Shown piece by piece: positions 10,994 to 61,982 of a stretch of 64,000 nucleotides of DNA. The stretch covers positions 4,528,001 through 4,592,000 of the forward strand of contig CM119373.1 in NCBI GenBank assembly GCA_051294905.1. Reading direction: 5' to 3'. Each line of letters starts with the position of its first letter. Positions within the stretch are counted from its first letter, which is position 1. The translations under genes were made by a program, and so were the position numbers. The notes beneath the pieces were generated by a model. That model worked only from the letters and a program-made list of their open reading frames with translations. It had not been told where the DNA came from and did no database searches. Source of the stretch: Botryllus schlosseri. Lineage: Eukaryota.

Positions 10994-11990
10994 CAGTGTT
11001 GGGATCAAGTCACTACCTTCGAGTCACGAGTCATCTCGAGTCATTGTACATTTTGACTCGAGTCAAGTCAAGTCAATAGATTTTCGAAGGTGACTCGAGT
11101 CAAGTCAAGTCACCTGTTTTTTGGAGGTGACTCGAGTCAAGTCGAGGCAAGTCAAGTCAAGTCACGAGTCAAGTCACAATTCAAGTCAAATTGAATTTCG
11201 AAGTATGAGTGATGATTCAAAGTCATTACATTTTGCTAGGTGTGTGAAAGACAGATTAATTGGCTATTTATCTTGAGTCAAATAACCAATATAAAGTTGA
11301 ATAAACATGCAAAAAGACGTTGCATAGCCCACGCACACGTAGAACTGTTTTTAGAATACGTGAGTAGACGTACAGTTACATTTTGCAGTCAGTTGTTATC
11401 AGCCAAAATACAGGACCGAATACGAAGCCCCGAGAAGTTGAAACAAATTGATTTGGTACGATTGCCACACTATACCCATCTACATAACCCTAAGCATATA
11501 AACGCACAGACTATATTTGTTCGATTTAAATCATACAAGTGTGGTGGCAAAACTGAGCAATGCACAACGTAAGCATTGAGCCGTCTAAGAAATAGAGACA
11601 CATTGCTATTAGATTAATGTACTATATATGTACGACAACGTAAACTGTGATTGTTTCGTTTTCGGTCAATTTATTTGTTATATAGCAATGGAGGATCAGC
11701 GTAACGTACGATCAGTGAATGACTGGTTGCTTTCACAAGTGACACCGGTGTATCTTGTACAATTCGAACATACACAAGATACATTGATTTATTCGACACT
11801 GTTTACTTAATGACTTGAAATTGACTCGTAAATTTTGCTCCGAGTCACGAGTCAATGCAGATTTCTGAAGCTCCGAGTCAAGTCAAGTCAAGTCATTTTT
11901 GCAAAGTGACTCGAGTCAAGTCAAGTCACACGAATAAGTTGACTCGAGTCTGACTCGAGTCAAGTCATGACTCGAGTCATCCCAACACTG
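10994..11990. mobile_element. Non-autonomous hAT-type element, copy 2
   Basis: Same TIRs as 7287-8127; perfect 8-bp TSD caatacaa. Confidence 0.9.
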
Positions 11991-12690
11991 CAATACAACA
12001 ATACAATAGGCCTCAATACAATACGATACAATAATGCAGCAGTACAACAGTTAATTATGACAAGAAAGTAAATTGAATCAGAATATTTATCCCGTCCAAT
12101 GCATGTTTGACATGTGATACATCTTCTGCACTAAGCCTTAACATTATTCACGCATTCAATCCATCTAAAACTGACTTTCTCCGACCAGCACAGAGATCTG
12201 AAAGCTTTTCGTCATGCCTAGTTGACTCCACGTGACATAAGCAATGCGAAAGAGTGATAAACGGTCGGAATCGATCCGATTACAATGACAAGAAAAATAC
12301 TTAGTCTGCCCACTATAGTCTCGAAATCTGACCCATGCTCAATCAATAGCTCATGGCGGCGAGGTATCAGCGATAATCAGCTAATGCTTTATTCCGATTT
12401 ATTGTGTATATAACCATTTAGGATTACATGGTTGGCAAGAACAATCCGACCGCACATAAAAATATGGCCCACATATTTGTTCGCCTGGGGTCAATTTAAC
12501 CCCAACCTTAGTGGCCTAGGGTTAATGAATGATGCTTTTTCCACCAATCAATGAAATTGATATAAAGAATGCATCGTCTTCTAATGTAAACAAACAATCT
12601 AGCAGATGTACTGGATCCATCTTGATTTGATATGTTGATTTTATCATGAAAACCAAATCAGTGCGATGGGGTGTTGGCTTCGGTAGAAAT

Positions 12691-14075
12691 CAGCGGTTTT
12701 CAACCTTTTTGGACATGCGCTTCCCTTGGCGATGGTCTAAAAAATGGCGCCGCTCTGACCATGTCAAAAAGAGCACATCCTCCAATACTTATGTAGCCTG
12801 AGGCCGCTTTCCATGGCATAGCTGTAATGAACTAACTGGACGCAAAATACCTATGGTAAACTGTCCATATCCATTCCCGGTGAACTCCGGACTATTCTAC
12901 TTTTCACAACGACCTGTTGTACGCAGCGAAATCGTGAGTGGTAATGTTATGAATAGTTGCTTGGATAGCATTGTCGTGCAGAACACGAAGAATTTTAAGA
13001 TCCACGAATGAATTCCGTAAATATTAGTAGTCATATCACATATTACTATCAAATATTTATCCTTTCTCAGCCCATGTGATCAGATTCACCGGTAGTGTTG
13101 ATGGAGGGAGTGCTTTCGAAAATTTAGGGCAAGTTATAAATGATAATGCATCTTTGGCTGGGCCAATTGTTATTAGAGACTTTATTGAATGCTGTTATTT
13201 CTTGACCCCCATCGGGATTGTCGATTGTATCGGTAGTGTAAATAGTGTAGTGTAAATATACTGAAATCACCCAAAAGTAACATAAACAAATTTCGTTCGC
13301 GAGGAGCACGCGATTCCGGTTCCCGCTTAGATTAAGAAGGGCTCTCTTATATTAAAACCGAAAAATGAAGTCGTGTTAAATTGCCCGAAGCGCGAAGAAA
13401 ATTTCAAGATTAATTAAAATCTCTCAAAAATTCGGTAGTGAATTCGTAATTTCAATTTGCATGTCGACGGCCGCCAACAAATATACTAATTGAATCAGGT
13501 GTCGACGGCCGCACAAATTCCCTTCTACGGCCGCAAATTACCCACCCCTGATGTAATAGTCTACATATGGTATATGTTACGCCAAGTTTGAAACCGTATT
13601 CCAGTTGTTGAGTCTTTTACATTTCTCACAAATTTCCCCAAACTTGTTTGAAAGTAAGAAAAACCATTGACAACAGGACATCGATATATTTCAAGGTATG
13701 TTGCACTAAGACTATAATCCTAATTCTGGTAGTGACTACAGAGAGCACGGCGTCGTTCTGTCCAGCCATGCTGAATTTGATCAGTTTCGCAATTGAATTA
13801 AATTGTGTTGATGTAGGGTAGCCTAATTGAAGGCAAAACCGGGAAACCTTATATTGCATCCAAGTCTGTCTTAGGCACTGCGGTTCGCCAGCTACAACAG
13901 CTACCCAGCGCACCGAGCTTCAGGCTACTGCCAAGCTATGAAGTAATGAATGACTTACACGTGGGAATTGCTCTATATCTTCAAAGAATATCAAAAATTT
14001 GCTCAAGTGAAGTTGAAATCCGCCTATACTCCTTCTCGTGCCCACCACTCCCCCCCCCACGGTTGAGAACCACTG
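12691..14075. mobile_element. hAT (Charlie-like) non-autonomous element
   Basis: TIRs cagcggttttcaacc / ggttgagaaccactg; TSD gtagaaat / gtataaat. Confidence 0.75.
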
Positions 14076-24598: not shown

Positions 24599-26836
24599 GT
24601 GCGTCAATAATATATAGTAGATATTATATTATTTCTGATACGAATTGCTAATTGATCGCACAATAATGGTCATACCTTCCGGTTTCGTGGTATCCAATGC
24701 GAGTTGATTCTGTGGTTGAGCCTTCTGTGACGGACATATAAGCAACTAAGCATATCAACAGGGAACAAGAAAGGAGGATTTGAATCGCCCATGACCGAAC
24801 ATGGAGTTTCTAGTATATAGCTGATCGTTGACTTGTAAGTAATTGTATATTCCCAATCATTTGAGCATACAATAACTCTTTTTCAAGACTCTTACTTTGT
24901 TGAGAGCAGTTTTTTTGGTTTTCGGCTTACATCATTATCTTGTCAATTTTCTCCATAATGAAGAGAAATATATATGAACAAAGGTCATTTCACCGCAGCC
25001 ACACGGGATATGCAAAATGCTTCAACTCATTATGCTCTGGTTAAATGTTTGCGATGACATATTGCATAGACGTGGAAGCTTGCTTCAATCGAGACACATA
25101 TATACGTCTATCAGAAATCAGGTGACGCACAATTAGGCTACTATATAGGCATTTAGGTATTGTATATGAGTACATGTATATTCCCGAATCCCGATAAAAA
25201 ATGCAAGAGACTTCACATCTTCAGAATTAGTACCGGCAAATATTCACGAACAACCAATTAGTTTAAACTGACCTAAATTAAAATGTATACCACTGCTAGC
25301 TGCTACGGGTGCTGTTTCGCAAATGATTGAGGTACCTTCCTGCCATCGTATAAAGTGAAAAAAAAAATATTTTGAAATTATTGCAATTTCGTTAAAAATA
25401 TTCATAATAGGTCAGTATACTACCAATTTAGTAATTTTGGAGTCCTTTGTTATAGCGTATGTCATCTTGTAGGCTAGGGGAGAAACTGATATAAATCATG
25501 TGACTGAAAATCAAAGAACAGCAACAAATGTCATTTGGGTTATATACGGCCTCCCCACTCTGCAATCAAATGAACTTATTACTCTGGGAAAATAATTGGA
25601 TGTTAATTACGAATGTTCGGATAATTTATCAAATTCAAATGTTAGTCAACTCACGAGCTTCCTCCCACCTGAAACAGATATTTCCTGGCCCTCAGTTTGT
25701 GCGTTCTATTGTTGGACCATGGTTTCACGCATCAGACAAAGAAATTATATATTGCTTCTGCTAGAATTAGATACAACTCAAAGAAAGCGGAATCTCTCAC
25801 GGGAGCACAAAATTCTACCAAATCAGAGATCTCTTTTTCAAGCCGCACAAAATCAAAAATTTATAGTTTTTTTCTGGTCGCACAACATTTCTCTGCGGCT
25901 CACAGGCTGTAGTGTGAAATATCCCGATTTGACTACTACGAGGTATCCAACTATATATTATTTCGGTGAAATACATTAAGGTTGAGAGATCCTATCGAGT
26001 GGTGAAGTGGCCATTGTATCGTATAATCCAGTGGTTCTAAACAGCCGATCTGTTGTAAGCTTCTTGCCAGTCCGACAAATATAAAATAATTTTATATACC
26101 TTAATTACAAATTACAAAAAATGGACGCCTGGCAATTTTAAAGGAAATTATAACGTAAAATTTGAATTTGATTTGGCAGTTTGTAACGTGTTTTCTAGAT
26201 GCTGTCGTGATAGGAAGTGCATGTTCTATACTTTGGGCGTACATCGCAATTGTGCAAATGTACACGAAATTGTTGGAAGAATAGCCTACAACTTCGGACA
26301 AGTTATATATGTGAAAGCTATGCGGAGACTTTTAAATAAACTTCGTTGAAATTCGATAGTGCAATTAAGCGCCACTTTGCTGTATGCTAGAGGTTATAGC
26401 TAACAGCATATTGACATTTCTTTCAAAGGACACCGAACAATTAAATGGTCTTTAACAGGACGAGCTTCGCCTTACAGAAACTTCGATAGGACCTTGTATA
26501 AATGTCTGATATCGAAAAGGCAACGTTTAATTAGGTTTCTAATATTACGTTTGAGTTGCATACGCTTGTAGTAATAATTACATTTACGGTTAATTGGGAT
26601 TTCGAAGATTCACCGGTCCGCAACTTTCATTTTGTAGCTTTATTGATACAGGAGGTCAAAAAGGTTGAGGCCACCACTCACCAGTCTAATCGAAATCGCC
26701 GTAAAAAATCAGTTCTCCCTGTAAACAATTAGACTTGTAATAATAAGAAGGAATACAGTCATATCGCATTCAATCAAGTTGTTGAATGTAGTAAGACTGG
26801 TTGGAATTTCGTGGGCTAAAAAATTTTTTGTTTTAG

Positions 26837-27462
26837 AATGCAACAGTACCGTTCTCAATTTCCCTGCAAAAAGACATACAGGCTACGTGCAGTTTACCGG
26901 TACTTTACCAAAGATTTCGTCGTTCACTGTCTGCGTCTGGGTACAGCCACAGAGTCCAACAGAGTTCGTAAAAGGATCGATCATTAGTTATTGCACTGCA
27001 GGCATGGGACAGTGCAACACATTTCTCATGATTTTATATAAAACCGAACTGAGGATTTACATCAACAACGCAGAGCATTTGTTTAAGTCTGTTCCGAAAA
27101 TAACTGGTCGTTCGCACCTGTGTATTGTCTTGGAGATGAGCTCATTGACGTATTACGTCAACGGATCCAAGTACCTACCAAATACCAATGGAAGCAACGC
27201 GGCAAGCATACCGGGAGGTGGGGTACTTTTCCTGGGCAATGATCAAGACGGCTCTCCAGGGAATCCAAATCAAGAGAAGCAAGGATTTTATGGTGAAATG
27301 CGAGGTCTACATCTGTGGAAAAGAGCTCTGAAGAAAGCAGAGATCGAATACTTAAATCAATCCCGATGCAATTGCGTGACTGATTCTTTAATAACGTTCA
27401 GCAGGTCAAACTTAGACTTGCGAGGAAATGTTAGCGTTAGATACGATGTTCCGTGTGACTAA
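26837..27462 (+). CDS. Terminal exon encoding a pentraxin (ConA-like lectin fold) domain, copy A
   Basis: ttttag acceptor; LPKISSFTVCVWV, IISY, SHLCI, YYVNG, IPGGGVLFLGNDQD, FYGEMRGLHLWKRAL are pentraxin hallmarks; open to TAA. Confidence 0.9.
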
Positions 27463-46160: not shown

Positions 46161-47464
46161 CCTTATTATGTGGTGTTGTTCATTCAATCCGCAGTGTCCC
46201 AATCGTAGATTCAGTTGCCTTGTTTACGACTGACGCCGTTATCTTGTCAATTTTCTCACTAATAAAGCGAACCAGCCTATATGAGCCGAGGCCATTTCAC
46301 CGCATCTACTCGAGATATGCAAAATGATTCAACTCATAGTGTTATATGTGTGCGATGATATAATGCATGGTTGTGGAAGCTTTATTGCAATCGGGGCACA
46401 TATCTACAGCGATGTGAAATCGTGTTTCGCACATTTTTATCCGAAGACTTTTTAGTTATTGTATGGAAAATAAATGCATATTTCCGGTCAAAAATACAAG
46501 AGACCACACGTCTTCATTCAGAATTAGTAACGACAAATAACCGCGAAAAAATCATTCGTTTAAATTGAAGTGTACAACACACTGCCACAAGTGCTGTTTC
46601 GCAAATTACCAAGATAACAGTCTACCACCGCATGAAGTGAAGAAACGTTATTGCAATTTCTGCAATTTTGTCAAAAATGTACATGTACTCTGTATTTGAA
46701 TTAGGTACATGGATATTTCAGTAAATTTTATGGACCTTTACCTTTGATATTCCGCGTGTGACATGATGTAGTAGGCTAGTGGAGAAGTTGATAAAAATCT
46801 TGTTAATAATAATGAAAAGAGTAGCAAGAGCAACAATGATTATTTAATGGTATATGCGGTTGTCCTATACTGCAGTAAAATTATCTCATTGCTTTGGGCA
46901 AATAATATGAGGATGATTAGGAATCTTCGGTCAATTTGTATTCTACCAACGAATTTGTTCCCCACTATACAATTTCCAGACCCGTAGTTGGCGAGACCTA
47001 TGTTGAAAAATTGTTTCACGCTGCGACAGAGACATATTAAATGGTTACAAGTAGAGTCAGGTCGAATTCAAAGTAAGAGGAATAGGTTACACGCGCAGCA
47101 AATTACAACTGGTTAAATCCTGTTTTTCAAGACGCAGACGCGTGAAAATGACGTATGATTTCATATCTGACGGTCGTTACACTATATTTTGAAATGACTT
47201 CTACGATACAATTTGACATGGTGGAAATTTGAAATAATATAATGTGTGAATAATATCGCCTTTATACATTTAGGCGTATAGGGACATGAAGAGGGCATTG
47301 TATGGTAATCGTCATTGCCATAGGAAATCAGTTATACAATTAAACAATGATACTTGTAGTAACAGGAATGAACACAGTAATGTCGGTTTAAATCAAGTTT
47401 GTGTCGACAATGTAAGGGTGGTTGGATCATCGTTTACTGATTCGTTGTACACTTTATATTTTAG

Positions 47465-48104
47465 AATGCATCGTTTACGTTCTCAAATTCCCGAATAAAG
47501 CTCACAAAGAATACGCGAAGTTTACCGGTTCTTTACCGGAGATATCATCGCTCACTGTTTGCGCCTCGGTAAAGCCGGAGAGTCTAAATGATTTCGTTAA
47601 CGGGTCGATAATTAGTTATTGCACCGAAGGCACGACACATTGCAACACATTTGTAATGATTTTAAACGAAAAAAATTGAGGGCGTACATCAATAGCGCGG
47701 AACATTTGTTTGACCCCGTTCCCCAAATTACAAGTTCTTCGCACATATGTATCGTCCTGGAGATGGGATCACTCGCGTACTAGGTCAACGGATCTGAGTA
47801 CCTACCAGGTAACAATGTAGGACATGCGGCAAGCATATCGGGAGGTGGCGTGCTTATCTTTGGTCAGGATCAAGATGGCAAAGTCGTTGGAAACTCTCCG
47901 GGAAATCCCAATGAAGCAGATCAAGGATTTCGCGGAGAAATGGAAGGATTACATCTTTGGAAAAGAGCTCTGAAGAAAGCAGATATCCAATACTTGAATA
48001 ATTCACGATGCAATTGCGTGCCGGATTCTGTAATGACTTTCAACGACACGAACTTGATCTTGCACAAAAACGTGGGCTATAGGTACGATGGTCCGTTTGA
48101 CTAA
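47465..48104 (+). pseudogene. Pentraxin exon, copy B
   Basis: Paralog of 26837-27462; frameshift in the A-run at ~47670 and premature TAG at 47781-47783. Confidence 0.9.
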
Positions 48105-49470: not shown

Positions 49471-51463
49471 CAAAATGAAATGACAACTGCATGTGGTTTG
49501 AGCACTGTATAGCCATGATAGTACAATGTTGACAAATCGACGGACTACCATGATAATTTGTAGCTCTTGCTTCTAGGTGTTCTTTTGATATCAATACGGC
49601 TGAAGAATCCATGAAGCACAGCTGGAGCATATTTTTGCTTTTGTGCAGTAAGTAATGCGTTGATCTTTCTTTTCTTGCAATTAAAATACAGTTTAAGTGT
49701 ATTATGCACCTATAACTCCAATGTGACTACAGATGACATGATAACCACGGTTGCTAAATATCACCACACCGCTTTGTGTGTGTTCCAGTTATTGGTCTGA
49801 GTTTACTTAGAATGAAAAAAATCGGTCTGTCTGTCGGTTGTATGACAATCTGTTTTCCGCACATACGTGTTGCTGAAATGTGCCCACTGCCCACGTCTCA
49901 ATGTAATTATATGGGTATAGTGATGTCGTCTTTTATGAGGATTTGACGTCTTCCCTCAAGAATAGTGAATGGCTCATCGATGAAGCACTAATGTCATCGG
50001 TTTTTGCATTTCATTAGCGTGCTTGTACTTTCAACGAGACTTTTAGGCATTTAGGCATTTATTTACAGAAATACTGTAGCAATGAAACACTTTAAATTGC
50101 TGGCCTGAAAAAAGTTTTTCCAGTATCTTTCCTAGTAAACCTTATTTGACGGGATGAAATTGTCCGACTGACTTCCATCACACAGGTTTCGGGTATACTC
50201 CTGACAAGTTGTCTATGATCGTGTCATTACGCAAGTCACATCAACATCCCGTTAGAGTTATCTTTTGATATTGGACCAGATAAATAACAAGAAAAACATA
50301 ATCATGAATTTGTCGAAATAACACAAATGTCTAATCGCCGGACAACCCAGAGAATGCCAATGGTTGCCATACCGACTTGCTTAGATAGCGAAGTACCAAG
50401 CTACGAGCTTCTGATCTGTTACTGTTCTCCATGACACGCACATAGTTTGCTGCGGCCCGTTCTGTAACGATGTCATGGCGTTGCCATTTACAAGTCCGTC
50501 TCTGATTTTCACGTTTTACCCGAGTCGGGTCAATTTAATAAAACATACAATCAAAACGAAACTCGTGTATATATTTCACTTATTCCATGATCGTGTGTTA
50601 TTTCACACCCAGTCGCGTAAGTAATTGTGAGCCTAATACATATTGAGATATAAAGCAGGGGTGCAAAGGATGATGTTTTCGTGCACCATCACAAATAAAT
50701 GGTTACGCGTGAATGGAACCGACTACGCCGCTGGAATATATGGACTCAGACGCATGCGTCAGTTTTTTCATTTACAATTTACGCCAATTGGTATGGATGT
50801 AAAGGATGAATAACGTAGCGAAACTTGTGGGAATGTGGGACATGAGGTAAATCATCGTGCAATTTACGTGTAATGTGGGATAGGATTAACATAGCTGGGC
50901 CCAGATCATGATCATGTATTTGAAAATATGCTTAATGATGCATGAGTTCTGATCAACTTCCCGCGTATGTTGTACATTCTACATTGTATATTCTACAAAC
51001 AATGTATATAGGGAAACTTGAAATAGGCTTAATGACATATTTACCACAAGTTTACATATCGTCAAAATGGGCTTGCTCAGTCTTATTCAGAATGTAGCAA
51101 TCTGTGTCTATTTGCATGACTGACCATTGTTCAATCTTATGGAGTCTTACGCATCAACTTCTGTTTTCGAATTGAGACAAGACAATAGAATAGCTATGTT
51201 GCAATGATCACTTCCTCGTAATGGAGAGGAATTTGTGATATTGCCATCGGCATGCATTTACTTTCTGTAAATATACTGGCAGCTATGACGAGTTACAGTG
51301 TAAAAATGTTGATAATATTGTAGTGTCATGTTACTGGTGGGAGTGGCAATTCAAGCTGTCACGTTGTCATAGACTAAATATAACTAAGCGCTATTGAAAA
51401 CTAAGTCGTATTTGTATACATCATGCATTATAGGCCTATACAGCAAGAAGGGTGTATGCATAT

Positions 51464-51716
51464 TGTTATGTTCTTGATCTTGTTGAACAATAACTCAATA
51501 CGACAAGGTTGCAATATGAAATCAGTATATTATCAGCAGAATAACTTTAAGGCAGCGACACGATCCACAGTACAGTTAAACGAAAGACCCGTAGACAACA
51601 GAACACAGGGTATAAATACGAAGCACGACACACGAAGAAATAATGATTGGCGGTAATTACTAATCCTAGACAAATAAGAGGCAAACGATACCAACGTAAA
51701 ATGCATGAACATAACA
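51464..51716 (-). repeat. 3' LTR of the Gypsy element
   Basis: tgttatgttc...gaacataaca; direct repeat of 60376-60629. Confidence 0.95.
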
Positions 51717-51749
51717 GTCCACCCTTGTAAGTTAGGAGTACAAGGTAAT

Positions 51750-52182
51750 TTACGTTGGCCGATAGAAATCAGTTTGGGTCCTAATTCTAAGCGAATAACG
51801 TCTGCCCGACGTTCGAGCAGGACTAGCTGCAGGACGTTGTGCCCTATTCCTGACCAATGGTTGATCAGCTTGGGACTGTTGAGGCTGAGCAACTTCCTGT
51901 GTGGCTGTATCATTACTTGTGGAAATCAAGCGTGGTTGGAGTTGGTTTTTATGCCTTCTCCCATACCCATGATCTGTTTTTATGATGTACACAACACGCC
52001 CCAGTATTTCCGCCACCACGCCAGCAACCCACTTTGGTCCTCGTCAGTAACTGCGAGCGTAAACAGAGGAACCAATCTCGTCTAGGCGTAACGGGTTTCG
52101 ATTTATCGAAGGGCGAGCACAAACTTAACAAATTGTTCGGCTGCCGACCATGTAAAATCTCAGCAGGCGTTTTCCAGTCTAT
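51750..52182 (-). pseudogene. Gypsy integrase C-terminus, separated from the core by the Harbinger
   Basis: IDWKTPAEILHGRQP...GPKWVAGVVAEILGRVVYIIKT..RRHKNQL; continues YRCAPHPS from 56573. Confidence 0.9.
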
Positions 52183-52527
52183 AAGCCCATTTACATGGCC
52201 GTTTGGGTCAGCTTCGAAGCTGACTCGTCGATCCGACTCTCTCGTTTTTGAAAAAGAAAAAAAGGCAAACTGCTTCAATCCGTCTTGAAGCTCAATCCGT
52301 TCCGCAGAGTCGCTTGGGGACGGCTTGAAGCCTGAAGGCCAGGAAGTACCGGTAAACAAACATACCTTGGTGTTGGTGACGCGGGTGAAAGTATATTGGG
52401 CGCATCGCTATTTTTAGTTATGTCATGCAGTTGCAGGTGGTTAGGGAGTTAGCTGCTATTGAACAGGATATTACCGTACTGAATTTTAATATTCTTACAG
52501 ATAATTGAGGTTTATATTAATAAAATA

Positions 52528-54368
52528 ATGCTTACTGAATATGAGAAACTCGCAATTTTGTTCGCGATCAAATTTGCGATAGATTCCATCCATCAAATCA
52601 TATCAACACCAAATATAGATCATCACCTGAGAATAATGTCATCATATTTGGAGCTACAAGGAAATCGTTTTGGAAGGATTTGGATGCATGTAAGGTGTGT
52701 ATACCGGTCAAAGAATTTACAATCTGAATTGAACAGTGTTCAGTCAACGCATATGCACATAGTCCCTATAATAATGAACTGCTCACCGACCACAGCGGGG
52801 TGACCACTGGTTTATCGGGTATTTCTAACTTTATAGGGCTGGGAAGTATTGGGAAACTGACGTAATGTCTTACAATGATGCACAGTGGATTGAAAATTTC
52901 AGGATTACAAAAGAAACTTTCACCAGCCTTGTGCATCTTGTTTATGATGATATGAAGCCAGGTACGTTGTATTGTTTCGGCGCATTCACACTTCAACATG
53001 CCACTTCTTTCCTAGCTTCAGTCCTGGTATTTTCTGTTACAGATTTGAGTACAAACGTTGCCAAATGAGAAAATATGTGTCCTGTTCAGTTATATTAGAC
53101 AATTATTGTGATCTCTGACTATAGCCAAGAGAAACATGCTATGTGTATGGTGTTTCAAGCTGTCTAAGCAATCTGTTATCATCTTTTTATATTTGTATCA
53201 GATGATGTGACTGTACGCGAGCCAATCTCCGCAGAAAAGAGAACTGCAATTGGTATCTATGCCTTGGCGTCGTCAGCCGAATACCGAACCATTGCCCATA
53301 CCTTTGGCGTCAGCAAATCTTCTGTATGCAATTGTGTCAAACGGTAAGCCTGCATACACAAAAATGATAGGATTATCACAACTGAAAGCAACTTTAATTT
53401 CTGTTATAGTTTTTGTACAGCCATTACAAAGCGGTTGCACCTATTTATTTCTTGGCCAAGTTTGGGGGAAGCTAAAGAAATCGCAGCGCGTATAGAAAGA
53501 GAACACCACTTTCCTCAGGTATCTTACTGTAGCGAAAAATCAATCTACTGGAGTTTTTTTCAATGTTCATGTCTTATAGGTTATTGGATGTATTGATGGG
53601 ACACATATTCCTATAGCTGCGCCTTCTGAAGGAAAGAAGGATTACACAAATCGTAAAGGTTGGGACTCCATTATACTTCAGGCAGTTGTCGACGATAAGT
53701 TCATGTTAGTATATTTTGTATTTTACCTAGGTCTAGTGATATTTCAATGACCTAATCATTACAGGTTTCGTGATATAAATGTTAAATGGCCTGGCAGCAC
53801 CCATGATGCAGCGGTCTTTGCGGAGTCTGGCTTATTCAAGCATTTTGACAAGTTACCAAAGGTTTGAAATTTCTGTTCTCTCACATGATTCACTCTCGGC
53901 ATCACCCTCTTTTTCCAGGCACCAATCATCTTGAATGGACAGCAACTTCCATTGCTGCTCTTAGGGGACCCAGCTTATCCCCTTCTACCGTGGTTAGTCA
54001 AACCTTTCATCGGACAGGGAATTGCGCCAGAAAAAGAGTCGTTCAACGTGTATCACAGTAGTGTGCGTATATGTGTAGAAAACGCCTTTGGACGACTAAA
54101 AGCCAGATGGCGCATTCTCGGCCGCAAGATCGGGACTTCTGTCGACACGATACCAGAACTGGTTTCGACTTGCTGCGCATTACATAACCTTTGTGAAAGG
54201 AATTCCATCGCCATTCCTCATCACACTGGACCTGTGAGCGCTTACCAGCAGCCGCCGACCAACGCAATACCACAAACCGATCTGCATCACGAAGGCCACA
54301 ATGTGCGACAAGCTATAGTTGAACATTTGAACAGTACGCAGTCACTAAGGCGGTCATTTCGCATATAG
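52528..54368 (+). CDS. Harbinger DDE nuclease (HARBI1-like), 7 exons: 52528-52694, 52837-52961, 53202-53343, 53410-53518, 53580-53704, 53765-53861, 53919-54368 (404 aa)
   Basis: All GT-AG, phases consistent, no stops. Motifs [81 protein letters not shown]. Confidence 0.92.
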
Positions 54369-54533
54369 GATAGGCGATGTTGGTTGTCACCTTGGATTGA
54401 CAAGAGCAAATTCTTGACTATGTATGATAGTGCCTGGACATTTGCTCCATGTACATTAGTTGGTATGTTCATTAATAGTGTTATGAATTAGTCTGTAATT
54501 ACTGTTAGCATCTGAACTAGTGTCCCTCTAAAT

Positions 54534-54940
54534 CAGTGGTTCTCTACCTTTTTATCTTCGCGGACCCCAAGTTTTGGTTCAAATTTAGCTCATGTACCGT
54601 GCAATCTGTGTTTTGCGAATATTAACTGTAGGCTAGTGACAAACAGCAGCTCATCTTGAAGTTGTTTTGGAATAGTGGTTATGGATACCACAGGTAAATT
54701 GACTTTGCAAAACAATTGAATCACGCTCATTGACCTTACTATTGCTACTATTTTATCAACAAAATATCTCTAAACAGCAATATGTTTGTTTCATTAGGCT
54801 ATTTCATCTCAGATGGTCATTCGGTTGATGCAGTAATGAAGCGAAACTACCTCGTAATTTCTCTATTTTGAAAATAAAATATGGTTACCAATCATTTTGT
54901 AAATTTAGACGTTTCGCAGACCTGCAGTTGAGAACCACTG
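54534..54940. mobile_element. Charlie-like MITE between the two Harbinger genes
   Basis: cagtggttctc / gagaaccactg; flanks ctctaaat / cttaaatt (degenerate). Confidence 0.75.
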
Positions 54941-55198
54941 CTTAAATTATTTCACACAATGTGTATCTCCAGTGCATGCTGTCCCATTTTCTCTATCCGC
55001 CCCACTCAACATGAGTCTATCTACCATAGTAGCCCGTTTTGGTAGCGAACCGCAGCTTTCCTGTATATTGATTAACGGAATAAACAGCCGGATTTCTTTT
55101 TCCTGTTTTTAATTCAAATAAAACGTAAACGAAATAGTCAAACGCACTCATCATTGCTCCGTCTGTTGTCTCGCTAACCGCTGAGTCCAATGTTCCCA

Positions 55199-56395
55199 TC
55201 ACTCCTCAATGCCTTCCTCTGCCTCGCTAGCTGTTGGTACCTGCAGAACTACAGCAGGTCGCTGGTTTGTTACCAAGTACTCTATCGAGTCTCGCAAGGT
55301 CTGGTTCAGGGACATAACCAATCTCTCGCGTGACTCTCTGTCCTTTTGGCACTGCTCCTTGTAAGCAGCTATATACTTGTCCCATCCAACTTCATCTAAA
55401 CAAAATATGCGCCACGTCAAGCAAAACTTAGGTAGGCTAGCAACAAAGACTACTTTGACAACATCTTATCTTGTCATCAATCATCATACCTTTTCTCCTT
55501 TTATGCTGACGTTGACTGATACGATCTGAGAAGGACCAAGCGAGATCTTGATTAGTAATATTCAAGAGAGAATTGTGCCGCGTGCTGCTAACATAAACAG
55601 TAAGACCTACCTCGTTTCCTTTTTGAACTTTGACTTTGTTCTGGCTGTTCTGTTTCTTGTGGCTCGTCAAGATCTTCCAGATCCTGGTTTGAGCTAGAGG
55701 GAGGATTTGATTCTTCACTAATGACTGAAATTTACACGCAGCTCAATATGAATGACTCAAATTACTAAGATCAAGAACTAACCGATGGTGTCTTGTGTTG
55801 ACGAATTAATGCTATCATCAGTTGCATCTATACATAATCAAAAAGATAAGCATGATAAGCAATTTTTACCTTGTTTAATCATCAAACCTTACCAAATCGC
55901 TGCGACAAGGTGTCGACAGCTGTAAGCTCGCCTTGAAATGCCTGTGCAAACAAAGTAGGAATCAGAGTTGAAACAAACCATCATTCTCTACATAATTTAT
56001 CTAAGATTACTTTTGTCCTTGGCCTTTCGCACATCAGACTGTGCATTTTTGCAAAATACGGCCAAGTTACTCCTCCAGCGCCCGACTTGGAGGAAGTCTT
56101 TAAGACAGTATAGTAAACTGTTTTTAAGTTTTTCCACTTAATGGATATCTGTTTCCTGAAGAAAGCATAAACATATACTGCTCACAAACAATAAAATTCT
56201 GCACATATTCCTATACCAATTTTTGCTGTAGCCCCTGTTGCAGAGTTGCTGGGCAATACTACCGTAGTACTGCTGGTTCCTGCCTTTGCAGCCATCTATT
56301 TTCTGTATAATCTTCATCTCCTCGATTAAACACAAAAGAAGGTCGGTTTCTTCTTGGCTCCATGCCCCAAAACGTATTTTCTTAACCTCCGCCAT
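55199..56395 (-). CDS. Harbinger Myb/SANT-like (trihelix) DNA-binding protein, 7 exons: 56395-56217, 56155-56011, 55941-55893, 55827-55783, 55724-55611, 55525-55490, 55395-55199 (254 aa)
   Basis: WSQEETDLLL...YGSIAQQLCNRGYSKNWKQISIKWKNLKTVY...WPYFAKMHSLM, then acidic linker, basic KRKR/KRRK patch and predicted C-terminal helix; splice phases consistent. Confidence 0.88.
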
Positions 56396-56572
56396 GTCGC
56401 TAGCTCGCACCTCGCACAAAGGCAATACCGGTAGTACGAATTACGGAGCCGGTCGTCTTATTTTTGCGTCATGTAAACACAACGGTTGAACGAGTCGGAT
56501 TGAAGCTTGCTGTGACGTCACTCGGAGACGGATTACAATTCAAGACGGATCGACCATGTAAATGGGCTTTAT

Positions 56573-59333
56573 GCTAGGGTGCGGTGCACATCGGTACGTA
56601 GCGAGAAGTGTTTGGAGCGCGAAGTTGAGATCTTTTCCCCCGTCGCAATTTTTTATTAATCCAGCTTTTAAAGTCTGGACGACACGCTCCGCTTCCCCGT
56701 TCGAGGCAGGGTGAAAAGACGGTGATACGATATGGCTGATTGGCAAATTAGAACAAAACATATCGAATTCATTCGACGTGAATTGCGGCCCGCCATCCGT
56801 GACAATTGTTATGGGCAAGCCTGCAATAGAGAAGACTTCCCTCAAAGCGTTGACTACACACAAAGTTGTGGTAGATCCGATATTCATTGCTTTAATGAAA
56901 GGATATTTCGAATGCGCATCGACGATGACAAGAAGCATTTTATTGTTTATTGGACCTGCGAAATCCAAGTGAATCCGTTCAAAGCTTTCACACGTTTTAG
57001 GCCATTCGCGATACTGACGATCAGGCGCTTTCATTACTTTACGGCAAACTTTTAACGAGATTTTCAATGTCGCGATTAATGGAAGGCCATGCGATGTAAC
57101 GTCGAGCCATCTGCTTCATTTTCGCGATACCCCAATGTCCTTCGTACAACAATGATAAGACTCGCGAGCGAAGTGACTGCGGAATTACTACGCGCTGAAA
57201 ACCATCAATATTGAGCATGACTATGTCTTCGTGCAGAGAAAGCGAATGTTTGCGAGTCGAAAACCAAGAAAAATCATCAATGTGCGTCTTTGGATTCCAA
57301 TTACCATGAGTGACAGATAATTTTACTAGTTTCATGGTTTTGTCCTTCAGCGTCGCGTCGCGAATTTCATTGCGAGTTAACGGCAAGCCATCGAATGCCA
57401 TATTAATAGCGTGAACGATCTCCGCGTTTTCACGAATTTCCAGTTCGTCAAACTCAGGGTCTGGACCCTTTGGTAGGCGAGATAAACCGTCGGCGTTTCC
57501 GTGCTGATTAGTCGGTTTATAGCGAATTTCATATTGATAAGCCATGAGCGTTAGTGCCCATCGCTGTAAGCGTTGCGTTGTAATCACGGCAATTTTCTTG
57601 TCTGGCGAAAAAATAGCTTAAAGCGGTTTGTGGTCCGTTACGAGCGTAAATTTTCTACCATACAAGAATTGACGAAATTTAGTGTCTCCGTAAATGATTG
57701 ACAGAGCTTCCTTCTCTATTTGAGAGTAGGACTTTTGCGAATCGGAAAGCGTTTTCGATGCGTGCGCGATCGGTCTCTCTTCGCCATTGTGCTCGATTGA
57801 GAGGACAGCGCCGATTCCAAATTGCGAAGCATCCGTTGACAAAATGAGATGCTTGTTTACATCATAATGAGCCAACTGCGTAGCGTCGATTACGTCGTTT
57901 TTGAGAATGCGAAAAGCTGCGTCACAGTCTGCATTCCAAATGAATTCCGCGTCTTTTTGAAGAAGACGGTACAAGGCAGCGGCTTTATTCGTGAAATTAG
58001 GAATAAACGCGCGATAATAATTGACTTTGCCCAGGAATGCCTGTAGCTGGCGAACATCCTGAGGTTTAGGCAACTGTTTGATTGCTTCAACGGATTTGTT
58101 AGACGGGCGCTTGCCATCCTTGTCAATTATGTGACCAAGATACTCGATACTACGTTTGAAAAATTCGCATTTCGCGAAGTTGACGGTGAAACCGTATTCG
58201 GTGAGGCGCTCAAAGAGTAGCGATAAGTTGCGAAAATGATCGCGTCCATCAGTGCCAGTAACGATTATGTCATCGATAAAACTAGCAGCACCGGGTAAGC
58301 CGGCGATCATGGCATCAATACAGCGTTGAAAATTTGCGGGACTAGATGCGACTCCGAAACACATGCGTCATTAACGGAAAAGACCGAATTGCGTGTTGAT
58401 GACACACAAATTCTTCGCATCATCATTTAATTCTAGCTGAAAAGAAGCATCGGCAAGATCAATTTTCGTAAAAATACAACCACCCTGTAACTTGTGAAGA
58501 ATTTCATCTAGAGAGGGCAGGGGATGTTGATCCATCTGAATTTGTTGATTCAATGCTTTGAAGTCACCACAAATGCGTACTGATCCATTAGATTTAGTGA
58601 CGGCAACAATTGGTGCTGCCCAATCACTGTAATTGATTGGTTCGAGAATACCTTGATCGACTAATCTATCCAATTCGGTTGGAACAGCGATTTGCCTTGC
58701 GAAAGGCAAAGGACGTGGCTTGTTAAATACGGGCTTGGCATTAGGTTTAAAGTGAATTGTCACCTTTGTCTTGATGCATCGTCCTAATACATTGGAGAAA
58801 ACGGAGGGAAATTTGGACTGAAAAGATACCAATTTGTCGTTCGAATCAGAAAGGTCGATAGTATTACATGATTGCGATTTGACCATCTGCGAGGAAATTG
58901 CATCCAAAGCAGACGTTCCCTTAGCGGTCATGGAGAAAGCATCGCTCCAATCGAGACCAAAAATGTTTTGCCCACGGTGTTCGTCGAGAACCACCAATTT
59001 TAAGCCAACTCGAACTTCGGAACCCACCTGCACGGTTACAGTGCAAATACCTTTCACTTTCAGTGGCCTGTCTCCGTACGCCACGAAAGAGCAATGGTAT
59101 GCTGAGAGTTTCGGAGAGCCCAAAGTTTTGTACACAGTCAATCCCACCATGGCGGAGGGTGCACCAGTGTCCCACTGTGTTGGCAACGGAATGCCGTTGA
59201 TGCTGGAGTCGATCCAGAGCTGCTTTCCTACGCGTCGATATAGTAGATCGATGTCGAAGGAGAGGAGCGGCACTGTGCAGAAATTGACGGAAATGACCTG
59301 TTGCGTGATACTAGGTTTGGTAGACATGCACAC
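56573..59333 (-). pseudogene. Gypsy pol (protease, RT, RNase H, integrase) with stops and a frameshift
   Basis: WDTGA, WAAPIV..VRICGDF, FIDD, TDASQFGIGA, YSQIEKEAL, RIHLDFAGP, IVTDGGPQF, HPASNGEAER; stops at ~58370 and ~57618, frameshift at ~57060. Confidence 0.93.
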
Positions 59334-60320
59334 AGGTTTGATATGACCTTTACGACCACATTTCTGACATACTGCATGTCGATATTGACAGTCATTTCTC
59401 TGGTGATCGATGAAACAGCGGCTGCAGGATTTCAGTCTTTCTGGGAAGTTGCCTTGGTTGGATTTGGAAGGTTTTTTTCCCCTTCCGATAACTTCCCGTC
59501 ATTTTATTGACGATGGAAGTATCTTTACCGTTACTATCGCCCTGGATAACCCTATCGGTTTCCAGCGTTCTTACGTATGTTGCGGCTACTTTGAGAACGT
59601 CGTTAAGGGATGGATTGGTTTGTGTTAGACAATGCCGTCTCACATCCGCGTGCGGCGTTTCTTTAATGATGAGATCGCGCATTAGCTCATCAACGTAGCT
59701 TTGATCACAGTCATCTCTTGAGCATGTGAAGTTGCAATCCTTGGAGATTCCGCGTAGAGTAGCGATCCAATCGGCGTATGACTGTCCCGGCTGCATTTTG
59801 CAATTGTAAAATTCGTACCTGGCTGCTTGCACATGGATTGAGTCCTTGAAGTGTGTAGACAACTTCTCAGTCAACGCGTCGAAGGATTGTGCACTGACAT
59901 CAGCAGCACCAAATAAATTACGTAGGAGCGAGTACGTTTCAGGTCCGACCCATGAGAGTAGACAGGCTCTTTTTTTTCTCCATGCTGGAAATGCCGTAAA
60001 TTGCAAGGTGATCGTTGCAGATATTGGTCCCACTTCTCTTTTGATTTTGCGAACGAATCAAACTTGGGAGCGGCTGTTTCAGATGTTGACGCACCGGGAT
60101 TCAACCTCTGCGTCAATTGCGCCATCTCTGTCATGACTTTTGCCATTGCTTCGTCATGCTTTGCTTGTTGTTGCACCATCATCTCTTGCCGCTTCGCTTG
60201 TCGTTTCAAATCTTCTCTGTGTCGAGCAGTTTGCTGCTCCAGCTCTTCTTTACGCTGTGCGCGTTGTTCCGCCATCATTTCCGGCTGCTTCTCTAGAAGC
60301 TTCAAAATACCCTATTCCAT
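59330..60320 (-). pseudogene. Gypsy gag with C-terminal zinc knuckle, frameshifted
   Basis: Coiled-coil N-terminus, LLSWVGPETYSLL, ARYEFYNCKMQPGQSYADW, CQKCGRKGHIKPVC. Confidence 0.88.
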
Positions 60321-60353
60321 GATATATACAGTATTCGTCGCAGAAATAACTAT

Positions 60354-60373
60354 GAATCCGACTTCTGACACCA
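60354..60373 (-). promoter_or_regulatory. Primer binding site (tRNA-Leu)
   Basis: Minus strand TGGTGTCAGAAGTCGGATTC, 2 nt after the 5' LTR. Confidence 0.85.
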
Positions 60374-60375
60374 AT

Positions 60376-60629
60376 TGTTATGTTCTTGATCTTGTTTGAA
60401 CAATAACTCAATACGACGAGGTTGCAATATGAAATCAGTATATTATCAGCAGAATAACTTTGAGGCAGCGACACGATCCAGAGTACAGTTAAACGAAAGA
60501 CCCGTAGACAACAGAACACAGGGTATAAATACGAAGCACGACACACGAGGAAATAATGATTGGCGGTAATTACTAATCCTAGACAAATAAGAGGCAAACG
60601 ATACCAACTTAAAATGCATGAACATAACA
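60376..60629 (-). repeat. 5' LTR of the Gypsy element
   Basis: Direct repeat of 51464-51716 (5 substitutions and 1 indel by eye). Confidence 0.95.
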
Positions 60630-60951
60630 CATATGAGTGGCAGGTTTTGACGTTGCAGATATAGGGATAGGTAAACATTGGCCTAGTGTAGGTTTGCGAT
60701 TGGGATTCAGATGACTGAAGCAACAATTCAAGGATTCGGAAAATGTGCAGTTTTAATATTTTGCGTCGCAGGTATGTATTCTGTATTGATAAATGTATAT
60801 TTGAGTTATTCATAAAGACAACAAGCAGCTAGGTATTCAGCTTTTTAAGTAAAATCTACGTTCATATCGGATAGCTCAGAGAGTGTGTTGATGAAGGAAT
60901 TGGGTGGCATGCACTTCTGCTCACAATGCTTGAAACGGAACCCCGCTTTGC

Positions 60952-61296
60952 ATATGATGCGGTCTCAAATTTGAGATAAAATCGGAAATAAACTTTTGGG
61001 CGCAGTTGAGTCCGTTTTGTCGCATCATGTCGCAGCAAAGTCGGTGACGCATCATATGTTTCCACGTACTACTAAGAAATCGGACTACAAGATTGCGGTG
61101 TACCAGAAATTTCACACGGCTACGCAGCGAAAACTAGCAGGCGCAACAGCATAGGGATTTACTTTTCAGCAAGAGTGGAACGGCTTGTTTCGGAAAAAGC
61201 ATTTAGCTGCAGTTCCATTACGGGGGCTTTCTGAAGAAAATGGCAGCGGCCAAAATTTTGTCCCGATTTTATCATTAATTTGAGATCTCGTCATAT
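60952..61296. mobile_element. Old MITE-like repeat with ~50-bp TIRs; related copies at ~30787-31137, ~29080-29400 and ~48775-49100
   Basis: atatgatgcggtctcaaatttgagataaaatcgg ... ccgattttatcattaatttgagatctcgtcatat. Confidence 0.6.
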
Positions 61297-61349
61297 TTAG
61301 AGAGCAGTGGCCCTTGCAACTGAAATGTACCTTGATAGAAGTAAAAAGT

Positions 61350-61982
61350 ATTTATGTTCGTGTATTTACGTTGGTATCGTTTCACTCTTATTTGTCTAGG
61401 ATTAGTAATTACCGTCAATCATTATTTCCTCGTGTGTCGTGCTTTGTATTTATACCCTGTGTTCTGTTGTCTACGGGTCTTTTCGTTTAACTGCACTCTG
61501 GATCGTGTCGCCTGTCTAAAGTTATTCTGTTGTAATATACTGATTTCATATTGCAACCTCGTATGAGTTATTGTTCAAACAAGATCAAGAACATAACAAT
61601 TGGTGTCAGAATTCGGATTCATAGTTATTTTTGCGACGAATATATATCATGGAATCGGGTATTTTGAGAAGCAGCAGGAAAAGATGGCGGAACTACGCGC
61701 ACAGCATGACGAAACAATGACGAAAGTGATGGCTGGGCTGGAACAGCAAAAAAACAACACAAAGAAGAAATGGCACAGTTCACGCAGAGGTTGAGTCTCG
61801 GTGCGTCAACATATGAAGCTACCGCTCCCAAGTTTGATTCGTTCATCAAATCAAAGGAGAAATGGGACCAATATCTGCAACGATTCAACCACCAGTTAGC
61901 AATTTACGGCATTTCCAACATGGAGAAAAAAAAGAGCGTGTTTACTCTCCTGGGTTGGACCCGAAACCTACTCGGCTACTCG
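61350..61982 (+). mobile_element. Second copy of the same Gypsy family (5' LTR ~61350-61598, PBS 61601-61620, gag start), opposite orientation, interrupted
   Basis: Reverse complement of 60629-59930; APKFDSFIKSKEKWDQYLQRF. Confidence 0.92.

What the first reader, a model, noticed from the sequence alone, without database searches (positions are those of the whole stretch)
52183..56569. Apparently intact, intron-rich two-component Harbinger system hidden inside a Gypsy integrase
Seen: perfect TIRs and TSD and two convergent genes, each reconstructable as 7 exons with canonical splice sites and no stops (404-aa DDE nuclease with D, D and E in IDGTH, GDPAY, VENAF; 254-aa Myb/SANT protein), while the surrounding retroelement is decayed. 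The ORF track shows only fragments. Known: Harbingers need both proteins, and the pair has been domesticated repeatedly (HARBI1/NAIF1, plant ALP1/ALP2). Inference: a candidate naturally active animal Harbinger with 12 introns and a non-canonical TAT target; the best candidate system in this window.
Basis: partly seen in the sequence, partly recalled or inferred. Interest (0 to 1): 0.75.

Follow-up and report, generated by a model that had tools for sequence, protein, structure and literature searches.

The report
Intact, spliced two-gene Harbinger transposon
A complete jumping gene of a well-known type (PIF/Harbinger) sits inside a broken retrotransposon, with both of its genes intact and 10 of their 12 introns seen spliced out in public sequence data, so it is likely a recently mobile master copy of its family, but its ability to jump is untested and its design is already described.

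Summary
The element spans 52183-56569, with 16-bp perfect inverted ends and TAT on both sides. Related retroelement copies lack exactly these 4,387 bases plus 3, so the 3-bp duplication is real. Both 7-exon models are stop-free (404 and 254 aa), and 10 of 12 introns appear as joints in public contigs. The catalytic D187/D272/E309 match 117 of 119, 120 of 120 and 120 of 120 homologues.

- TAT is probably an off-consensus site; sister copies point to C-AAT/C-ATT, a known class.
- An old hAT-like MITE (54534-54940) lies between the genes.
- DNA data show a very abundant short relative, a few broken long copies and no sign of a burst of full-length copies.

Tail-to-tail genes, AWT targets, intact animal families and one mobile animal Harbinger are already published. 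Twelve introns exceeds the counts I found in print and in relatives. Current activity is plausible but unproven. The scan holds other Harbinger notes in this genome, but no look-alike of this sequence. Verdict: new member of a known kind.

The parts
52180..52182 (.). left target-site duplication, TAT (preceded by C)
   Evidence: empty-site joint skips element + 3 bases
52183..52198 (+). left terminal inverted repeat, 16 bp perfect
52207..52224 (.). 18-bp perfect palindrome in the left subterminal region
52228..52303 (+). three inward-facing subterminal motifs (core ATCCG[AT][CT] at 52231, 52278, 52295); candidate Myb-binding sites
   Evidence: binding inferred, not tested
52183..52329 (+). left-end stretch shared at about 95% with a very abundant family of short non-autonomous elements, which part from this copy at 52278 or 52329
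   Evidence: depth, loose ends
52437..52500 (+). possible extra upstream intron (64 nt, GT-AG), in frame with an ATG at 52425 (417-aa form); unverified
   Evidence: no RNA cover here
52528..54368 (+). DDE transposase gene, 7 exons, 404 aa; D187, D272, E309
   Evidence: introns 2, 4, 5, 6 joined in X5/X6/X7/X9
54534..54940 (.). hAT-like MITE, 407 bp, 11-bp perfect inverted ends, degenerate 8-bp duplication, high-copy family, in the 3' spacer between the genes
   Evidence: the hAT label is recalled from its end motif
55199..56395 (-). Myb/SANT-like DNA-binding gene, 7 exons, 254 aa; an alternative donor in intron 6 adds 12 aa in frame
   Evidence: all 6 introns joined
56492..56553 (-). three inward-facing subterminal motifs (56500, 56533, 56550)
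56554..56569 (-). right terminal inverted repeat
56570..56572 (.). right target-site duplication, TAT (followed by G)
51462..60629 (-). host Gypsy-type LTR retroelement (LTRs 51462-51716 and 60374-60629; gag, protease, RT, RNase H and integrase pieces), broken by stops at 58368 and 57618, four frame changes and the Harbinger insertion

Best explanation
This is a full-length PIF/Harbinger (PHIS) cut-and-paste transposon with two intact, tail-to-tail, spliced genes, which inserted into a Gypsy retroelement and is likely a recently mobile master copy of its family. Shown: the ends, the 3-bp duplication, both open frames, the catalytic triad and splicing of 10 of 12 introns. Inferred from the known Harbinger mechanism: the Myb protein would bind the six inward-facing subterminal motifs, bind the transposase N-terminus and carry it into the nucleus; the transposase would cut at the inverted ends and insert at a C-ANT-G-like site with a 3-bp duplication. 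TAT here would be a near match to that target. The same two proteins would probably also move the abundant short elements that share the left end. The old MITE in the spacer probably travels as a passenger.
For: Ends and empty site. Open frames.

Catalytic residues: D187 in 117 of 119, D237 in 118 of 118, D272 in 120 of 120, E309 in 120 of 120 aligned homologues; the copy matches 81 of 90 columns conserved at 80% or more. The spliced protein aligns without large gaps to homologues over about residues 50-400, at up to 47% identity.

Splice joints lie in four contig sets from three studies (X5, X6: P2; X7: P3; X9: P4). The four nuclease joints are absent from the two DNA runs. These contigs match the window almost exactly, non-coding parts included: 2 differences in 1,290 nt (X5), 1 in 758 (X7), none in the pieces listed for X6 record 21 and X9 record 28. 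That points to a young lineage.

The Myb gene lies on the retroelement's own strand and keeps its introns, so the insertion happened in DNA after the retroelement integrated (inference). The LTRs differ by 2%. At the retroelement's rate of 4-6 lesions in 4.2 kb, zero lesions in 1,980 coding bases has probability 0.06-0.15.

Summed contig depth is about 11,000-14,000 over the first 150 bp against 18-110 inside in X1, the pattern of a large non-autonomous family. Mechanism as summarised in PMC9392472 (introduction read) and PMC10288884 (passages).
Against: No burst: DNA contigs that match this copy exactly have depth 14-29 in X1 and 9-34 in X3, the same order as diverged long copies carrying frameshifts and deletions (the tool warns that depth is not copy number).

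Expression is low. The raw bulk RNA run X23 (6% read) gave no depth over 52401-54404 or 54906-56408, and neither raw run showed a joint inside the element.

The 5' end of the transposase is poorly supported: intron 3 is unseen, and one X6 contig reads 69 nt unspliced into intron 1.

Nine of 90 conserved columns differ (for example G327 where 86% have D). The short family differs from this copy at fixed sites such as 52258, so it derives from an older relative. No second intact copy and no polymorphic insertion was shown.
Confidence: 0.62

Rival explanations
1. A recently immobilised survivor: the last intact-looking copy of a family whose burst is over, still transcribed and spliced but no longer moving, because of host silencing or a subtle defect.
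For: The other long copies are broken; exact-match depth is low; the short family is about 5% diverged; nine conserved positions differ; very few raw RNA reads fall on the genes.
Against: There are no lesions in 1,980 coding bases; the ends are perfect; sequence is near-identical in samples of three studies including non-coding parts; and it inserted into a retroelement with 98% identical LTRs.
Confidence: 0.3
2. Early co-domestication: a single fixed locus whose two proteins are kept by selection for a host role, like HARBI1/NAIF1 or the insect APLG/APM pairs.
For: The genes are intron-rich and spliced in several samples, and copy number appears low.
Against: Domesticated pairs are defined by loss of TIRs and TSD and by conserved synteny (PMC9710019, passages). 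Here both ends and the duplication are perfect, the catalytic triad is intact, the site is inside a young retroelement, and broken paralogues exist. Non-coding parts are as invariant as coding parts.
Confidence: 0.05
3. The exon models are an artefact of hand-picking splice sites in a decayed element.
For: Two of 12 junctions lack a direct joint.
Against: Ten of 12 junctions are seen at the predicted bases, and the homologue alignment runs smoothly across all six transposase junctions.
Confidence: 0.03

Closest known systems
NuwaII group of the PHIS superfamily, e.g. NuwaII_CPB1 (turtle) and NuwaII-1_BFlo = Repbase Harbinger-2_BF (Han et al. 2015, PMC4482050; main text parts 1-3, Tables S1 part, S3 part, S5, S7 and Fig. 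S3 passages read)
   Same: DDE_Tnp_4 transposase of about 410-430 aa plus a Myb_DNA-bind_4 protein, 4-5 kb, short TIRs, 3-bp duplication between C and G. By my hand count on the printed Fig. S3 blocks the transposase matches 52 of 92 (CPB1) and 49 of 92 (BFlo1) positions, and its spacer after HDA is 32 aa against 35-36.
   Different: NuwaII duplicates TNA and its TIRs mostly start with GG. Here the ends start with AAG, this copy duplicates TAT, and sister copies are flanked by C-AAT/C-ATT.
Pangu group, especially Pangu_CGig = Repbase Harbinger-3_CGi (PMC4482050, Table S3)
   Same: AWT duplication, 16-bp TIR, 402-aa DDE_Tnp_4 transposase and 282-aa Myb_DNA-bind_4 protein: nearly the same description as this element.
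   Different: The catalytic blocks match less well (42 of 92 by hand count; spacer 23 aa against 32). No tunicate is among the host groups that the paper lists for Pangu. No tree with Pangu references could be built.
Ectocarpus autonomous Harbingers (PMC12477816, passages)
   Same: Two tail-to-tail genes; one subgroup makes ANT duplications.
   Different: Brown alga; intron numbers were not given in the passages seen.
Harbinger-1M_cIno of Caenorhabditis inopinata (bioRxiv 10.64898/2026.05.26.728016; abstract, introduction and section 17 read)
   Same: An animal family with one intact, expressed transposase locus among hundreds of short non-coding derivatives.
   Different: There, mobility was shown by a new mutation, the two genes are intact only in separate elements, and the target is TWA. 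Here both genes are intact in one element and mobility is not shown.
Zebrafish Harbinger3_DR and the domesticated pair HARBI1/NAIF1 (Sinzelle et al. 2008; paper not held; seen only as cited in PMC9392472 and PMC9179366)
   Same: Same two-protein design; source of the mechanism inferred here.
   Different: Harbinger3_DR was a reconstructed element (per the cited title) with a CWG target (Table S5 of PMC4482050). HARBI1/NAIF1 are host genes derived from such elements.

Membership tests
PIF/Harbinger in the broad sense (PHIS, two-gene Myb type) | DDE transposase of the DDE_Tnp_4/HARBI1 type with an intact triad | tested here: met
PIF/Harbinger in the broad sense (PHIS, two-gene Myb type) | second gene encoding a Myb/SANT DNA-binding protein | tested here: met
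   relatives
PIF/Harbinger in the broad sense (PHIS, two-gene Myb type) | short terminal inverted repeats starting with A or G | tested here: met
   16 bp perfect, starting with A
PIF/Harbinger in the broad sense (PHIS, two-gene Myb type) | 3-bp target-site duplication | tested here: met
   TAT on both sides; the empty-site joint skips element + 3
PIF/Harbinger in the broad sense (PHIS, two-gene Myb type) | both proteins needed for transposition; Myb binds the ends and imports the transposase | not testable with these tools
   needs a cell assay
PIF/Harbinger group in the narrow sense of Han et al. 2015 | TWA duplication | tested here: not met
   TAT here; sister flanks C-AAT/C-ATT
NuwaII | C|TNA|G target | tested here: not met
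   the C and G flanks are met, but the core is TAT/AWT
NuwaII | transposase falls in the Nuwa clade | tested here: inconclusive
   hand count on printed blocks favours NuwaII; my tree holds no reference member, and L016, a complete element with C-TTA-G, lies outside the query's clade
Pangu | ANT/AWT duplication | tested here: inconclusive
   this copy has TAT; left flanks of sister copies suggest AAT/ATT, but only as low-agreement (about 0.5) consensus rows of one end, with 133 rows hidden
Pangu | transposase falls in the Pangu clade | tested here: inconclusive
   lower block identity and a longer spacer than Pangu_CGig (by hand); no reference sequences in the tree
Domesticated Harbinger gene pair (HARBI1/NAIF1, APLG/APM) | no TIRs or TSD; conserved syntenic locus | tested here: not met
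   perfect TIRs and TSD inside a young retroelement; synteny not testable

The most novel reading that the evidence does not exclude
A currently active, single-master animal Harbinger with a NuwaII-like transposase that has shifted its target to C|AWT|G and has gained about a dozen host-style introns. It still drives a large family of short elements, and its native, unreconstructed protein pair would work in a cell assay. That would give a natural two-component animal system for studying target-site change and intron gain in a transposon.
Probability: 0.25. Interest if true: 0.55.

Novelty: new member of a known kind. Interest (0 to 1): 0.32.

Why it matters
Biochemical work on Harbinger elements rests mainly on rice Ping/Pong and one reconstructed zebrafish element, as cited in the papers read. 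A native, intact and expressed pair from an invertebrate is a ready reagent for that assay and a candidate driver of a large MITE family in its host. The intron load is the most unusual feature: six in the transposase, against one to three reported for plant PIF transposases (PMC4565680) and none or one apparent in the related loci examined here. The apparent pairing of a NuwaII-like enzyme with an AWT target would also show that classing these elements by duplication sequence is unreliable. None of this is a new mechanism.

Tried and rejected
- No whole genome is held for this window, so copy number, other full-length copies and a proper TSD logo could not be obtained.
- The run search listed no holder on record as RNA. 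That blank was not used as evidence; the spliced contigs came from runs of unrecorded kind.
- No cover of the transposase 5' exons in X23, X5 and X7 or X9: these are contig or sub-sampled data, so not counted as silence.
- Complex prediction of transposase exon 1 with the Myb C-terminal exon: no verdict (score 0.02).
- PDB sequence search with exon 7: only summed low-level matches to repeat proteins with no passing stretch, judged spurious; no solved relative.
- Homologue search with Myb exon 1 found nothing; exon 2 found 16. A host pentraxin-domain ORF gave only 2 unnamed hits, so I did not establish the host taxon.
- Introner origin of the introns rejected: the best pairwise score among 13 introns was 21, within the shuffled range of 20-31.
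- Retrotransposition of the Harbinger inside the Gypsy RNA rejected, because the same-strand Myb introns are kept.
- Boundaries shifted to give a TAA/TTA duplication rejected (skip length).
- Horizontal transfer: no close relative; nearest is 58% over the 166-column core, on a long lone branch in a 41-row clade (97/100) of arthropod, fish and unnamed proteins.
- Rfam scan of 51400-61000: no match.
- Shared intron at transposase codon 181 with five related loci: near but not identical (phase 1 against phase 0).
- The P value for the subterminal motif is inflated, because the motif was picked from these ends.
- Repbase and Dfam could not be searched. End-motif strings were not found in the Han et al. 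supplements, whose family tables print no TIR sequences in the parts read. bioRxiv supplements were closed.
Full report
1. The observation. The element runs from 52183 to 56569. Its ends form a 16-bp perfect inverted repeat, and only this boundary has the same three bases (TAT) on both sides. Twenty shuffles of the window gave four 16-bp inverted pairs in total. The decisive check is the empty site: three of four runs laid hold a joint from 52179 to 56570 that skips 4,390 bases, the element plus three. These reads differ from the window at many flank positions, so they probably come from other copies of the retroelement. They fix the duplication length but say nothing on polymorphism at this locus.

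2. The genes. Joining exons by coordinate gives a 404-aa protein on + (52528-54368) and a 254-aa protein on - (56395-55199), seven exons each, all introns GT-AG, no stops. Single exons hit DDE_Tnp_4 and Myb_DNA-bind_4. Of 315 homologues found with exon 7, the best 120 were kept. Against them D187, D237, D272 and E309 are matched by 117 of 119, 118 of 118, 120 of 120 and 120 of 120 rows, and the copy agrees at 81 of 90 well-conserved columns; the nine differences are not catalytic. The alignment runs smoothly across all six transposase junctions.

3. Splicing. I laid 8 of the 24 listed runs. Joints at the predicted bases were seen for transposase introns 2 (X6), 4 (X6, X9), 5 and 6 (X5, X6, X7, X9), and for all six Myb introns (X5; introns 2-5 also X7). 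That is 10 of 12, from three studies. These runs are of unrecorded kind, but the four transposase joints are absent from the two DNA runs. X7 uses a second in-frame donor in Myb intron 6. Intron 1 has indirect support: an X6 contig stops aligning at 52835 with 14 letters left, as a splice from a donor ending in AG would give. Another X6 contig, however, reads 69 nt into that intron unspliced. Intron 3 was not seen. One search showed 15 of 25 joints. The two raw RNA runs, of which 6% and 3% were read, had almost no reads on the genes and no internal joint, so expression is low in those samples.

4. The family. In DNA run X1 the summed depth is about 11,000-14,000 over the first 150 bases and 18-110 inside. 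The tool warns that this is not a copy number, but the contrast marks a large family of short elements about 95% alike to the left end, which leave it at 52278 or 52329. Inside, contigs fall into exact matches (depth 14-29 in X1) and diverged copies with frameshifts and deletions (depth about 7-34). I see no sign of many near-identical full-length copies. Loose-end consensus rows upstream of the left end finish in C-AAT or C-ATT in X1, X3, X6 and X9. Agreement is about 0.5-0.6 in multi-contig rows, X1 and X3 are one sample, and 133 rows were hidden. The family target is therefore probably C|AWT|G, and TAT a near match. The right end was not examined in DNA. Six of the window's 25 matches to a 7-base motif lie in the terminal 298 bases, three at each end facing inward, and none in the interior; the motif was chosen after seeing the ends.

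5. Order of events. The host is a Gypsy-type element on the - strand with gag, protease, RT, RNase H and integrase pieces. Its LTRs differ at 5 of 255 bases and one gap, and it has two stops and four frame changes. The Harbinger lies just after the integrase core. Its Myb gene is on the retroelement's strand and keeps its introns, so it arrived as DNA after the retroelement did (inference). A 407-bp MITE with a degenerate duplication sits between the two genes. Expressed contigs from other samples carry it nearly unchanged (X5: 2 differences over 54108-55397), so the MITE is probably older than this insertion and a passenger. Near-identity across samples in non-coding parts points to a young lineage more than to selection.

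6. Mechanism. By the scheme summarised in PMC9392472 (introduction read) and PMC10288884 (passages), the Myb protein binds the ends and imports the transposase, which cuts and reinserts with a 3-bp duplication. All the parts for this are present and most of the splicing is shown. Binding, import and movement are inferred. I put recent mobility as a master copy at about 0.6, a just-immobilised survivor at 0.3, and domestication at 0.05.

7. Comparison with what is known. Han et al. 2015 (PMC4482050; main text parts 1-3 of 4 and parts of two supplements read) list 88 PIF/Harbinger, 22 NuwaII, 11 NuwaI and 2 Pangu families with two intact ORFs. They give ANT/AWT as the Pangu duplication; Pangu_CGig has AWT, a 16-bp TIR, a 402-aa transposase and a Myb protein. 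By hand count on their printed blocks this transposase is nearer NuwaII (52 and 49 of 92) than Pangu_CGig (42 of 92), so the subgroup is unresolved. Tail-to-tail genes and ANT targets are described in Ectocarpus (PMC12477816, passages). Expression is reported for fish Harbingers (PMC9179366, passages), and ongoing mobility for a nematode family (bioRxiv 10.64898/2026.05.26.728016, three sections). In my tree of 63 rows the transposase is a long lone branch in a 97/100 clade with arthropod, fish and unnamed proteins.

8. Introns. Plant PIF transposases have one to three (PMC4565680, passages) and CACTA transposases up to six exons (PMC4158355, abstract). Of 38 related metagenome loci, some redundant and not all covering each site, 16, 22, 23, 31 and 31 read through the positions of introns 2-6 without an insertion. 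Three have one intron near codon 111, and five have a splice acceptor close to, but not at, intron 4. So most of these introns look lineage-specific. One relative has a Myb gene with short introns (L004), and four Myb hits look like the same exon. Nine paper searches found no report of a Harbinger with this many introns, but Repbase and subscription journals were not searchable. Unchecked scan notes call the host a sea squirt; I did not establish this. Tunicate Harbinger families are already catalogued in Table S1 of PMC4482050, so a prior entry cannot be excluded.

9. Verdict. A real, well-preserved, spliced two-gene Harbinger: a new member of a known kind, useful as a reagent and mildly unusual in intron load and target, with activity unproven. 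Interest 0.32.

Noticed in passing
window 54534-54940: hAT-like MITE between the two genes; a high-copy family in all four runs. This copy is diverged and its 8-bp duplication is degenerate, yet expressed contigs carry it almost unchanged, so it probably moved with the Harbinger.
   Followed up: partly
window 54906-55240: A few single-cell reads fall on the + strand near 54906-55072 and on the - strand over the last Myb exon; AATAAA lies on + at 54873, 55079 and 55117. The two 3' ends may overlap and form double-stranded RNA. Weak: a handful of reads.
   Followed up: partly
window 52437-52500: A strong acceptor 27 nt upstream of the transposase ATG. It is either the end of an extra intron (417-aa form) or, if the host is a tunicate as unchecked scan notes say, a possible trans-splice site.
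   Followed up: partly
window 8831-10672: Uninterrupted 613-aa hAT transposase frame with zf-BED and dimerisation domains; ends not examined.
   Followed up: partly
window 26725-27462 and 47416-48104: Two related pentraxin/LamG-like frames inside a large degenerate tandem duplication; the first is one long frame, the second is split.
   Followed up: partly
window 59929-61974: An inverted, more diverged partial copy of the same Gypsy element (LTR and gag start) lies next to its LTR.
   Followed up: no
X21/X9/X1 reads at window 52185 and 52198-52205: A sister family with a slightly different end (AGG start) is also present; its flanks suggest C-ANT as well.
   Followed up: no
L016:46-4761: A complete Harbinger with 24-bp ends, a C-TTA-G target and a tail-to-tail Myb gene in a metagenome contig.
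   Followed up: partly
proteins P0124, P0126, P0130, P0132: Four of 16 hits to Myb exon 2 look like single exons with about the same borders, which hints that these introns are shared by distant families. DNA not seen.
   Followed up: partly
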